Shown: positions 58,419-61,152 of the stretch, one piece after another
How positions within the stretch are numbered: the stretch's first letter is position 1
Layout: each line of letters begins with the position of its first letter
Origin: the human T2T-CHM13v2.0 reference genome, Homo sapiens
NCBI GenBank assembly: GCA_009914755.4
Contig: CP086569.2
Location: forward strand, 62,240,001-62,304,000
Direction: 5' to 3'
Length of the DNA stretch: 64,000 bases
Notes under the pieces: model-generated
What the model was told of the DNA's origin: nothing
Seen by the model: the letters and a program-made list of their open reading frames with translations, nothing else
Databases searched by the model: none
Program-made: the position numbers and the translations under genes

Positions 58419-59469
58419 GCTTGGCCACAGAGGAAGCTGCATTGTATTAATATAAAGGGTACTTTGGAGACAAAACAGAGTTGCATTTGATTTTCAGCTT
58501 TGCTATTAAGGTACTTAACCTCTTTAAACCTAAGTTTTCTCACCATTGTTCACTATATCCTTAGATATATCTACACCATGGACATGTCTATGGATTGTTT
58601 TTAAAATTCTACTTGTTGCTGGAATTTCAAGAAATGGACTTCAAGATGATACTACCCAGGATTGTTGGAATATTCATTGAAACCATGTATATTTTTCAAA
58701 AAACAGAATGTAAGAAATCTTGCCTGACATATAAGGGGAACTCAACAAATGCAGTCTCCAAGAGGACAGGAACTTTGTTTTGTGTACTGTTGTATTAGTG
58801 CCTTGGACATAGCAGAAACTCAACAAATAATGCTCATGTGTTTCCCTTCCTTCCTCTGCCTACTTTGTTAATAAAATATATTTCATATCAACTATCATTG
58901 TATCATGCATAAATATTCTTCACGTCTCTTAAATTTGTGTGACTTTCCATTATACTTAGAAATTTACTGTCTTCTTACGAAAAGTATTTCCATCTCTCAA
59001 CAAAGTTAATGATCTGCACAGCTGTGTCAAGAAGATGTAGTAATGTTCAATGTAGGAAGATGAACAATTTGAAAAACACACACACATTCCCTGATTTCAT
59101 TCGTGTCACATATGGACTCATGGCTTTCAAACACTCAAACATAACATGAAAACCATTACCTTCGCATTCGAGCTACCTGAAGTTTTTGTTTTTTTCCTTA
59201 CAGGGAACCACCGCAAGCACAGATTTGAAATAAAATTGAGGGCAGTAGTATCAGGAAAAAAATCGTTGGGAATGTGTTGGAGAGAGTAAGGGTCCAGCAG
59301 GCAGCTGCGTTCTGGCTGGACTTGCAGTCCTACCTCCGTGGCCCCAAACTCGGGGGTGATTTAGAGCAACGCCTTTGGGCCTTACTGTTTTAGACTATGG
59401 GGGTGCACTCCATCGGTGGTTTTCCCCCATTATTTTAACCACAGTCTCCTTTCTTTCAGAGAAGTGCTC

Positions 59470-59760
59470 CGTGTGAATCTCGAGCTGGGTGGGGAGGAGA
59501 AAAAAGAAAACCAAAGCCAATCTGGTCTCCTTGCATCTCGAAAAAGGTCACACGATCCGTCGCTTTGCCGCCGCTCTCCGGAGTCCCGGGCCACGACCTC
59601 GCATTCAGAAGTCACGTTCAGCATCTAAAGGTAGCGGTCCTCGAGTCCACTCCCCGCTGGAGTGAAGAGAACAACGGGGAGGACGCCTTCCCAGAGCAGC
59701 TGCCGCCGGTCCCTGTCCCCGGCTCGCTTCAAGCTCTGCAGCTGCTGGGGCATTTCTGAT
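59470..59760 (+). promoter_or_regulatory. CpG island-like segment (core ~300 bp; wider CpG-enriched zone ~59270-60110) with a downstream Sp1 GC-box (60019-60024); candidate promoter / first exon
   Basis: Hand count for 59461-59760: G=85, C=92 (59% GC), 22 CpG, obs/exp ~0.84, against near-zero CpG in surrounding non-Alu DNA; 'GAGGGGCGGAGTC' at 60015-60027. Confidence 0.5.
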
Positions 59761-61152
59761 GAGGGCCCTGGGAGGTACACTCTGAAACATTCCGCCCCTT
59801 GCTAGTATTTACTCACTGTCTTCCAACCTTTTTGCTGTGGAATGCGTGCTCCATGCTCCCTGTCCCCATCTTGGGAGGAGGCAGGAACCGAGATGAAGGA
59901 GGAGCGCAGAAGCAAACACTTTATGTGCCCAACTGGAACTGTTCGCTTTGGTCAACCAACACTGATTGCTCATTCCTCTGTGTTCCCTCTTAAACAGCTT
60001 CTGAAAATTGCTCGAGAGGGGCGGAGTCAGGAAGCCAAGAGCGTGGGAGGCAAATCTCAGCCCCCTCGCTGTCTGTGAGGCTAGAAGCCTCGGTTTTCCT
60101 TATCTGGAAAAGGGGGTTGCTGATAATAATAATTACTTCACACCATTACTGCGATGATTAAATGCAGTAATATATATCTATCTTAGAATACTGTTTGGTA
60201 CTGAGGAGTGTTAGCCCTTGTCATTAGTATGCATTCTGTCAACAAACTGTAATTGAGCACAAGCTCTGTGCTACCCTGAGGAGATAAGAGTGGTGAACAA
60301 GACTAATAACGTTCCTGCCCATATGAAATGTATATCCTAATGATGGTAAATGAAAAATAAGCTAGTAAACAATAAAAACATAATTATTTTAATTATCATA
60401 AGAAAATAAAACAAGAAAATATGTACAGAGTGAACATGTGGCAAGTGGCTAATGAAAAGCCAGTGGTCATGGAAAGTCCATCTGAGGAGGGGCCTGAATA
60501 ACAAGAAAGACATGCACACAGATCTGCAGGTTCAGCATTCAGTGCAGAGTAAACAGCTGACGCAAAAACTCAAAGGTGAGTGCATGCTTGGTCTGTTCCA
60601 AGGTGAAAATCATGCACTTATTACATGACAATGACTTAAAGATGTATTTCTATCCCTGCACATGTAGGGACAATTTATATGGGCATCTTCATTCTCGCCA
60701 AGAGTTGGAGAACGGGAAAGATATGGGAACCTGTCCCAGCTGTTTTCTCATTATTAAAGTGATTGATGACAAAGATCAGTATATGCGCAGAGAAACAGAT
60801 CCAGCACCTTTCACCAACAGATAATTCGTTAAATGCTGAAGGATTTTTAGCCAAAATCCTGAACAACTGGAAATAAGCCAAGGCGGAAAAAAATCTAATG
60901 CCAAGTTACAGACCTTTTTCATGAGGACACCAGTTTTGTGGTTTACCATTCCATTAGAGTATGCATTCTTTTTTAAAAACATTTATTTAATTTTTAAATT
61001 TTAGATTCAAGTGGTATGTGTGCAGGTTTGTTACAAGGGTATATTGCATAATGCTGACTTTGAGCTCCTAGTGAACCCATTGCCCAAATAGTGAACATAG
61101 TACCCAATAAGGTAGTTTTTCAGGGGAAAGAAACTGCTCTATTAAAAAGAAA

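What the first reader, a model, noticed from the sequence alone, without database searches (positions are those of the whole stretch)
59204..60110. Compact CpG island with GC-box and flanking splice-like signals in an otherwise CpG-depleted repeat desert: candidate unannotated promoter / first exon
Outside Alus, this 64-kb window has almost no CpG dinucleotides. Yet 59461-59760 holds 22 CpGs in 300 bp (59% GC, obs/exp ~0.84), with further CpGs out to ~60.1 kb. CpGs persist in germline DNA mainly when the region is constitutively unmethylated, which is the signature of a promoter. A consensus Sp1 box (GGGGCGGAG) sits at 60015-60027. On the plus strand a strong 3' splice-site-like motif (TTTTTGTTTTTTTCCTTACAG|G at 59183-59204) precedes the island, and donor-like motifs (AAG|GTAGCG at 59631; GAG|GTACAC at ~59775) lie inside it. 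Translations of local ORFs (70 and 64 aa) match no protein I recognise. If real, this is more likely a lncRNA, orphan CGI or bidirectional promoter than a coding exon.
Basis: partly seen in the sequence, partly recalled or inferred. Interest (0 to 1): 0.6.

Follow-up and report, generated by a model that had tools for sequence, protein, structure and literature searches.

The report
Small CpG island, probable weak promoter
A real but very small cluster of CpG dinucleotides sits in otherwise CpG-poor, repeat-rich primate DNA; it is most likely an ordinary weak "orphan"-type CpG-island regulatory element (probably a promoter for a non-coding RNA), and it is neither a gene-coding segment nor a young repeat.

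Summary
At that background about 3.6 CpGs are expected (P~4e-11). The signal is narrower than described. A 188-bp core (59539-59726; 20 CpGs, o/e 1.06) sits between graded shoulders. It passes the Gardiner-Garden and, marginally, the Takai-Jones criteria. It falls under the 200-bp filter of a UCSC-style caller and never reaches high-CpG-promoter class. TpG/CpA decay products are depleted where CpGs peak. There is no second copy in the window, no target-site duplication and no poly-A tail. The window's two complete CpG-retaining Alus have perfect duplications and 24-25-A tails. No frame has a protein or Pfam relative, ORF lengths match chance, and there is no Rfam, tRNA or RNA-structure signal. 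Two full Sp1 consensus boxes in opposite orientation (59789-59798 minus, 60018-60027 plus; 0.06 expected) lie beside the core. Best reading: a long-standing germline-hypomethylated, intermediate-CpG island, probably a tissue-restricted or divergent ncRNA promoter. Methylation, transcription start sites, conservation and annotation could not be tested with these tools. This is a known kind of feature and of low interest.

The parts
59539..59726 (.). Dense CpG core: 188 bp, 20 CpGs, 63.8% GC, o/e 1.06
   Evidence: Maximal-scoring segment from a UCSC-style +17/-1 scan. The 100-bp profile peaks at 59501-59600 (10 CpG, o/e 1.36), where TpG+CpA o/e is 0.70.
59231..60052 (.). Extended weak island (core plus shoulders)
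   Evidence: 299 sliding 500-bp windows in this span meet GC>=55% and o/e>=0.65. 59375-59804 meets GC>=50% and o/e>=0.6. The shoulders hold 2-5 CpG per 100 bp against about 0.45 in the background.
59789..59798 (-). GC box matching the full Sp1 10-mer consensus KGGGCGGRRY (GGGGCGGAAT on the minus strand)
   Evidence: two matches in 59200-60120 against 0.06 expected from block shuffles. Read directly.
60018..60027 (+).
59564..59571 (+). E2F-like TTTGCCGC inside the core (weak cue)
   Evidence: 1 found, 0.12 expected. No correction for the 17 motifs tried.
59517..59521 (+). CCAAT pentamer (chance level; listed for completeness)
   Evidence: 1 found, 1.65 expected.
59334..59336 (-). Candidate minus-strand splice donor GAG|GTAGGA; the exon would end at 59334. 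Inferred only.
   Evidence: 7.4 bits on a heuristic matrix. Sites of this strength occur about 1.2 per kb by chance.
60573..60581 (+). Best plus-strand splice donor near the island, AAG|GTGAGT; the exon would end at 60575. Inferred only.
   Evidence: 12.2 bits, the top score within +/-1 kb. It lies about 550 bp downstream of the plus-oriented GC box.
60087..60201 (-). MIR SINE fragment forming the right edge of the finding
   Evidence: local alignment score 35 against a shuffle maximum of 16. The consensus was recalled from memory, so this is a lead and not a database result.
59183..59204 (+). It is present, but nothing shows that it is used.
   Evidence: No homolog for the downstream frame.

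Best explanation
This is a small, intermediate-density CpG island in unique, old sequence. It has kept its CpGs because it is spared from cytosine methylation in the germline, so the usual methyl-CpG to TpG decay has not acted on it. As with other such islands, unmethylated CpGs and GC-box (Sp1/KLF-type) factors would hold the chromatin open and allow RNA polymerase II to initiate. It is most likely a weak, TATA-less and probably tissue-restricted promoter. It may be divergent, and its products are non-coding RNA or an alternative 5' exon of a distant gene.

Shown here: the CpG excess, the decay-product pattern, single-copy status, the absence of insertion hallmarks, the absence of coding or structured-RNA signal, and the two inverted GC boxes.

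Inferred: germline hypomethylation, promoter activity, and orientation. There is a slight lean to a minus-strand start near 59.70-59.76 kb, downstream of the minus-oriented GC box, with a possible plus-strand partner starting after the box at 60018.
For: - CpG excess: 22 against about 3.6 expected, P~4e-11.
- The profile is graded with shoulders instead of sharp edges, and TpG+CpA o/e is 0.70-0.90 in the peak against 1.4-1.9 in the flanks.
- Internal clock from the same window: 16 Alu copies range from o/e 0.16 to 0.99. The two complete copies with o/e >=0.9 examined (23158-23462 and 45304-45625) carry perfect 10- and 15-bp target-site duplications and 24-25-A tails. The island core (o/e 1.06) has neither.
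- No other copy in the window. One exact 27-mer hit in the metagenome contigs, which was the same locus at 100% identity, and none in the viral or prokaryotic genome collections.
- Two full Sp1 consensus boxes in inverted orientation, against 0.06 expected.
- Meets the Gardiner-Garden and Takai-Jones criteria.
- Literature prior: about half of CGIs are orphans; 42% of human orphans show initiation evidence (60% when H3K4me3 is counted); their products are probably ncRNAs (PMC2944787).
Against: - No direct evidence of methylation state, transcription start or transcripts could be obtained.
- No orthologous sequence was available, so retention of CpGs cannot be separated from recent gain.
- The island is weak. 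The 188-bp core fails the >200-bp filter of a UCSC-style caller, and no window reaches high-CpG-promoter class. Weak islands are the class most often methylated, and inactive, in development (PMC2944787).
- Strand asymmetry is slight (GC skew -0.12).
- No ETS, NRF1, YY1, CRE or TATA motif was found.
- Splice cues are at chance level.
Confidence: 0.55

Rival explanations
1. It is a hypomethylated regulatory element that is not a promoter, such as an enhancer, an insulator or another factor-bound low-methylated region. Bound proteins keep the CpGs unmethylated, but no stable transcript starts there.
For: The sequence evidence for protection from CpG decay is the same. The core is very small (188 bp) and of intermediate CpG class. 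No strong splice donor lies close to the core. About 40% of human orphan CGIs lacked any initiation or H3K4me3 evidence (PMC2944787).
Against: No CTCF core, AP-1 or other enhancer-type motif was found. Only 1.6% of mapped enhancers lay within 100 bp of orphan CGIs in PMC2944787. Paired GC boxes are classic promoter elements (established knowledge).
Confidence: 0.2
2. It is a CpG cluster that was not maintained by hypomethylation. It would be built by GC-biased gene conversion at a recombination hotspot, or by recent lineage-specific CpG gains (a 'pseudo' island or CpG-beacon cluster), and would be methylated in the germline.
For: Such classes exist among computationally defined CGIs (PMC4121359; PMC3469460 listed). 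One PRDM9-like 13-mer (CCTCCGTGGCCCC) lies at 59333 in the left shoulder. Both CpGs inside the MIR part differ from the recalled consensus, so they look like gains.
Against: The surrounding DNA is about 36% GC, L1-rich, isochore-poor sequence. This is not the GC-rich, high-recombination setting typical of conversion islands (established knowledge). TpG/CpA depletion coincides exactly with the CpG peak. A chance origin has P~4e-11 per window.
Confidence: 0.12
3. It is a young GC-rich insertion or duplicate: a fragment of an SVA, LTR or L1 5'UTR, a retrocopy of a GC-rich untranslated region, or a DNA-level duplication. It would be methylated but too recent to have lost its CpGs.
For: There is no genome-wide repeat library or reference assembly here, so a low-copy family or a segmental duplicate cannot be formally excluded. 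A 13/16 direct repeat brackets the finding (59192 and 60094).
Against: - No other copy in the window, and only the same locus was recovered from contig collections.
- The right copy of the 13/16 repeat is the MIR core itself. The MIR alignment starts 7 bases to its left, and no MIR remnant abuts the left copy.
- Genuinely young insertions in this window keep perfect duplications and long A tails.
- The CpG density is graded, not step-like.
- No rRNA, snRNA or 7SL match and no internal duplication.
Confidence: 0.08
4. It is a protein-coding exon (a first or internal exon, or a de novo small ORF) whose CpGs are kept by selection on the protein.
For: Stop-free frames of up to 106 aa exist. An ATG with a 42-aa frame lies on the minus strand downstream of the minus-oriented GC box.
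Against: - The longest frame equals the shuffle expectation: 106 aa against 113+/-27, and 52% of shuffles are at least as long.
- No homolog for any frame among 5.8 billion proteins. The AMD1-pseudogene control from the same window gave 80 hits, including vertebrate proteins.
- The exhaustive HMMER search of the 106-aa frame gave only four spurious hits to unrelated tandem-repeat proteins.
- No Pfam match.
Confidence: 0.03

Closest known systems
Orphan CpG islands (Illingworth et al. 2010, PMC2944787)
   Same: A compact CpG-rich, GC-box-bearing, non-coding segment far from any recognisable gene feature in 64 kb of repeat-rich DNA. Its expected behaviour is that of a tissue-restricted promoter, probably for ncRNA, that is liable to developmental methylation.
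   Different: Orphan status requires gene annotation, and the biochemical definition requires unmethylated DNA (CAP-seq). Neither could be checked. This one is at the very small, CpG-poor end of the class.
Intermediate-CpG promoters (ICP class of Weber et al. 2007; recalled, not read here)
   Same: It meets the weak-island thresholds but not the high-CpG ones. No 500-bp window has both o/e above 0.75 and GC above 55%.
   Different: The classification is defined around known transcription start sites, and no start site is known here.
Divergent (bidirectional) CpG-island promoters
   Same: Two consensus GC boxes lie in opposite orientation about 220 bp apart, with no TATA box.
   Different: There is no evidence of transcripts on either strand. 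Strand compositional asymmetry is weak, and no ETS/GABP, NRF1 or YY1 motifs typical of bidirectional promoters were found.
Young CpG-rich retroelements (AluY, SVA, LTR12, L1PA 5'UTR)
   Same: Comparable CpG o/e to the youngest Alus in this window (0.93-0.99).
   Different: Single copy, no target-site duplication, no A tail, graded edges, and no similarity to the Alu, L1 or LTR12-like sequences present in the window.

Membership tests
CpG island, Gardiner-Garden and Frommer definition | >=200 bp with GC >=50% and CpG o/e >=0.6 | tested here: met
   59375-59804: 430 bp, 56.3% GC, 24 CpG, o/e 0.71.
CpG island, Takai and Jones definition | >=500 bp with GC >=55% and o/e >=0.65 (designed to exclude Alus) | tested here: met
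   299 sliding windows pass, all within 59231-60052. For example, 59250-59800 has 55.9% GC and o/e 0.67. The pass is marginal.
CpG island as called by the UCSC track algorithm | Maximal-scoring (+17/-1) segment longer than 200 bp with GC >=50% and o/e >0.6 | tested here: not met
   My re-implementation gives the segment 59539-59726, which is 188 bp (63.8% GC, o/e 1.06). It fails on length only. The real track was not consulted.
High-CpG promoter class | A 500-bp window with o/e >0.75 and GC >55% | tested here: not met
   0 qualifying windows, so it falls in the intermediate class.
Non-methylated island (biochemical CGI) | CpGs unmethylated in germline or early embryo DNA | not testable with these tools
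   Only indirect evidence: TpG+CpA depletion at the CpG peak and CpG retention without the hallmarks of a young insertion.
RNA polymerase II promoter | Mapped transcription start sites (CAGE, 5' ends, RNAPII, H3K4me3) | not testable with these tools
   No expression, chromatin or annotation resource for this genome is available here.
RNA polymerase II promoter | Proximal promoter elements such as GC boxes | tested here: met
   Two full KGGGCGGRRY matches against 0.06 expected. No TATA, ETS, NRF1, YY1 or CRE motif.
Orphan CpG island | Remote from any annotated promoter | not testable with these tools
   The window could not be placed in a reference assembly. No coding exon was recognised within 13 kb.
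Young interspersed repeat or retrocopy | Multiple related copies; target-site duplication; A tail or terminal repeats | tested here: not met
   No copy in the window. The only candidate duplication is 13/16 and lies inside a MIR. There is no A or T run longer than 7. Young Alu controls show both hallmarks. Genome-wide copy number was not testable.
Protein-coding exon | Homologs, domain match or an ORF longer than chance | tested here: not met
   with the positive control.
Structured non-coding RNA gene | Rfam or tRNA model match, or folding energy beyond shuffles | tested here: not met
   No Rfam hit even at E<=5. No tRNA. Fold z-scores of +1.36 and +0.36.
Biased-gene-conversion or stochastic 'pseudo' island | Excess weak-to-strong substitutions and a normal CpG decay rate on primate lineages | not testable with these tools
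   No orthologous sequences were available. The only cues are one PRDM9-like 13-mer at 59333 and the AT-rich context.

The most novel reading that the evidence does not exclude
The element is a genuinely unannotated, germline- or development-restricted divergent promoter for a primate ncRNA. Standard CpG-island tracks would have missed it because the dense core is only 188 bp. The perfect 16-bp x 7 tandem array 1.1 kb away might then be part of its regulatory neighbourhood.
Probability: 0.12. Interest if true: 0.25.

Novelty: already known. Interest (0 to 1): 0.12.

Why it matters
It matters little beyond local annotation. Small orphan-type CpG islands number in the thousands in primate genomes, and their usual role as weak, tissue-restricted promoters is well described. 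If this one proved to be active, it would add one ncRNA or alternative promoter to a repeat-rich, gene-poor stretch. The useful methodological point is that the window's own Alus provide an internal CpG-decay clock. That clock separates 'protected' from 'merely young' CpG clusters without any external data.

Tried and rejected
1. Repeat or duplicate. A window-wide repeat search and exact 27-mer scans of the metagenome, prokaryotic-genome and viral contig collections gave only one contig, L001. It is 100% identical to 59151-60676. That is same-species contamination, so it is no ortholog and useless for conservation.

2. Target-site duplication. The 13/16 repeat at 59192 and 60094 was rejected because the right copy is the MIR core and young insertions in this window keep perfect duplications.

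3. Known RNA. Rfam at gathering threshold and at E<=5, plus tRNA search, found nothing. Folding energy is no better than shuffles on either strand.

4. Coding.
- Concatenated start-trimmed ORFs and then all stop-to-stop frames gave no hits.
- The single 106-aa frame gave four spurious repeat-protein hits.
- Pfam found nothing.

5. Placing the locus through nearby exons. 150 non-repeat frames of at least 40 aa in 46-64 kb were inspected, and none looked coding.

6. Internal duplication, G-quadruplexes and GC skew as orientation cues all gave negative or weak results.

8. The bacterial promoter/terminator scanner was not used because it does not apply to this genome.

Full report
**Context.** The window is primate DNA. 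It is 37.8% GC and about half of it is repeated within itself. It holds 21 Alu-like segments, many L1 ORF2 fragments, an LTR12-like block at 50.1-51.3 kb and an AMD1 processed pseudogene (Pfam PF01536, E=2.9e-37). A metagenome contig at 1.3x coverage is 100% identical to 59151-60676. That is host contamination of the kind usually contributed by human DNA. No tool available here holds a primate reference, its annotation, or epigenomic data.

**The observation.**
- After masking the Alus, the rest of the window has CpG o/e 0.14-0.15 and 4.4-4.8 CpG per kb.
- At that rate the 300-bp core would hold about 3.6 CpGs. It holds 22 (P~4e-11).
- The 100-bp profile is graded: 2, 4, 3, 10, 6, 5, 2, 2, 5 CpGs from 59201 to 60100.
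- The decay products TpG+CpA are depleted where CpGs peak (o/e 0.70-0.90) and in excess in the flanks (1.4-1.9).

A UCSC-style maximal-segment scan reduces the dense part to 59539-59726: 188 bp, 20 CpGs, o/e 1.06. This is just under the >200-bp filter. The segment passes the Gardiner-Garden criteria. It passes the Takai-Jones criteria marginally. It never reaches high-CpG-promoter class. It is therefore a real but very small, intermediate-density island.

- The segment matches nothing else in the window. An exact 27-mer from it recovered only the same locus from public contigs.
- The one candidate target-site duplication (13/16 at 59192 and 60094) fails. Its right copy is the conserved core of a MIR fragment aligned at 60087-60201 (score 35 against a shuffle maximum of 16, consensus recalled from memory). 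No MIR remnant abuts the left copy.
- The window provides its own clock. The 16 Alu copies span o/e 0.16-0.99. The two complete copies with o/e >=0.9 that I examined carry perfect 15- and 10-bp duplications and 24-25-A tails. The island core, at o/e 1.06, has no duplication, no A or T run above 7, no internal duplication and no sharp edges.

Youth is therefore an unlikely explanation. Protection from methylation-driven decay is the economical one.

**Is it coding or a structured RNA?**
- The longest stop-free frame (106 aa) equals the shuffle expectation (113+/-27).
- No frame across 59095-60100 has a relative among 5.8 billion proteins. The AMD1-like ORF from the same window, used as a positive control, returned 80 hits including vertebrate AMD1.
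- An exhaustive HMMER search of the 106-aa frame gave four weak hits. They are unrelated tandem-repeat proteins whose scores are sums over internal repeats at about 28% identity.
- Pfam, Rfam (even at E<=5) and tRNA scans are empty.
- Folding energies do not beat shuffles (z +1.36 and +0.36).

**Promoter cues.**
- Two full matches to the Sp1 10-mer consensus occur against 0.06 expected. They are in opposite orientation: 59789-59798 (minus) and 60018-60027 (plus). Both lie to the right of the dense core.
- One E2F-like octamer lies in the core (0.12 expected).
- No TATA, ETS, NRF1, YY1, CRE or CTCF-core match was found.
The acceptor-like tract at 59183-59204 precedes the island on the plus strand, which is not where a first exon needs a signal.
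- The better candidates are the plus-strand donor at 60575 (AAG|GTGAGT, 12.2 bits) and the minus-strand donors at 59334 and 59160. These are compatible with divergent first exons but do not demonstrate them.
- Core GC skew is only -0.12, so orientation stays open. The C-rich core lies downstream of the minus-oriented GC box, which gives a slight lean to the minus strand.

**Interpretation.** The sequence evidence supports a long-standing, germline-protected CpG cluster in unique DNA, flanked by GC boxes. From the literature, about half of mammalian CGIs are orphans. 42% of human orphans show initiation evidence, or 60% with H3K4me3. They are more tissue-restricted and more often methylated during development, and their products are probably ncRNAs (PMC2944787). 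A minority of computational CGIs owe their composition to biased gene conversion or to chance (PMC4121359).

My estimates are:
- weak promoter, possibly divergent: about 0.55
- non-promoter hypomethylated element: about 0.20
- conversion, stochastic or recently gained cluster: about 0.12
- young insertion: about 0.08
- coding exon: about 0.03

**Novelty and verdict.** This is an ordinary member of a thoroughly described class. Whether this instance is already annotated could not be checked. Its 188-bp core might escape the default CpG-island track. Even so, regulatory-element and transcript catalogues for the human genome are dense enough that a truly unknown promoter is unlikely. Interest is low (0.12). 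The island is real, non-coding and not a young repeat. The splice cues are uninformative, and promoter activity is untested.

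Noticed in passing
window 58305-58418: A perfect tandem array of 7.1 copies of the 16-mer GCTGTGAAGTCAGCTT, all copies 100% identical, lies about 1.1 kb left of the island core. The unit carries paired TGCTG...TCAGC half-sites resembling a mis-spaced MAF/AP-1-type palindrome (from memory). It is probably a recently expanded minisatellite.
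   Followed up: partly
window 61409-61490: A 33-bp unit repeated 2.5 times with 100% identity. The unit is itself nearly palindromic (AATTAACATAGAAATAATTTCTATGTTAATAGG) and is embedded in L1-3'-end-like sequence.
   Followed up: no
window 50140-51300: A GC-rich block (up to 70% GC, CpG o/e about 0.4-0.5, 31 CpGs) with three 41-bp repeats containing CCAATCAGCACTCTG and a 96-bp x 2.2 array. By recall it looks like an LTR12-type (HERV9) LTR. It is the only notable non-Alu CpG source besides the island.
   Followed up: partly
window 14053-14364 (-): A 103-aa open frame matching Pfam SAM_decarbox (E=2.9e-37) with no introns, so a processed pseudogene of AMD1. The closest database ORF is 96% identical.
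   Followed up: partly
window 18.6-20.1 kb and 26.8-28.4 kb: Two copies, 82-89% identical, of an element about 1.5 kb long with long frames (up to 283 aa) and no Pfam match. By recall it resembles MaLR (THE1/MST) internal sequence.
   Followed up: no
window 23158-23462 (-) and 45304-45625 (+): Two very young Alus, 97% identical to each other in inverted orientation. They keep 23-25 CpGs (o/e 0.93-0.99), perfect 10- and 15-bp target-site duplications and 24-25-A tails. They are possibly polymorphic insertions, and they were used here as an internal CpG-decay control.
   Followed up: yes
L001 (ERZ1034109 NODE-4510, 1526 bp) = window 59151-60676: A public metagenome assembly contains a contig at 1.3x coverage that is 100% identical to this primate locus. 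This is host-DNA contamination in a metagenome record.
   Followed up: yes
window 60470-60640 (+) and 58797-58828: The sequence around the strong donor at 60575 resembles, by recall, an ancient L2-type 3' fragment. A short MIR-like piece lies at 58797-58828 (score 16 against a shuffle maximum of 14, so borderline). If both are real, ancient repeats flank the island on both sides, which is consistent with old, non-inserted DNA.
   Followed up: partly
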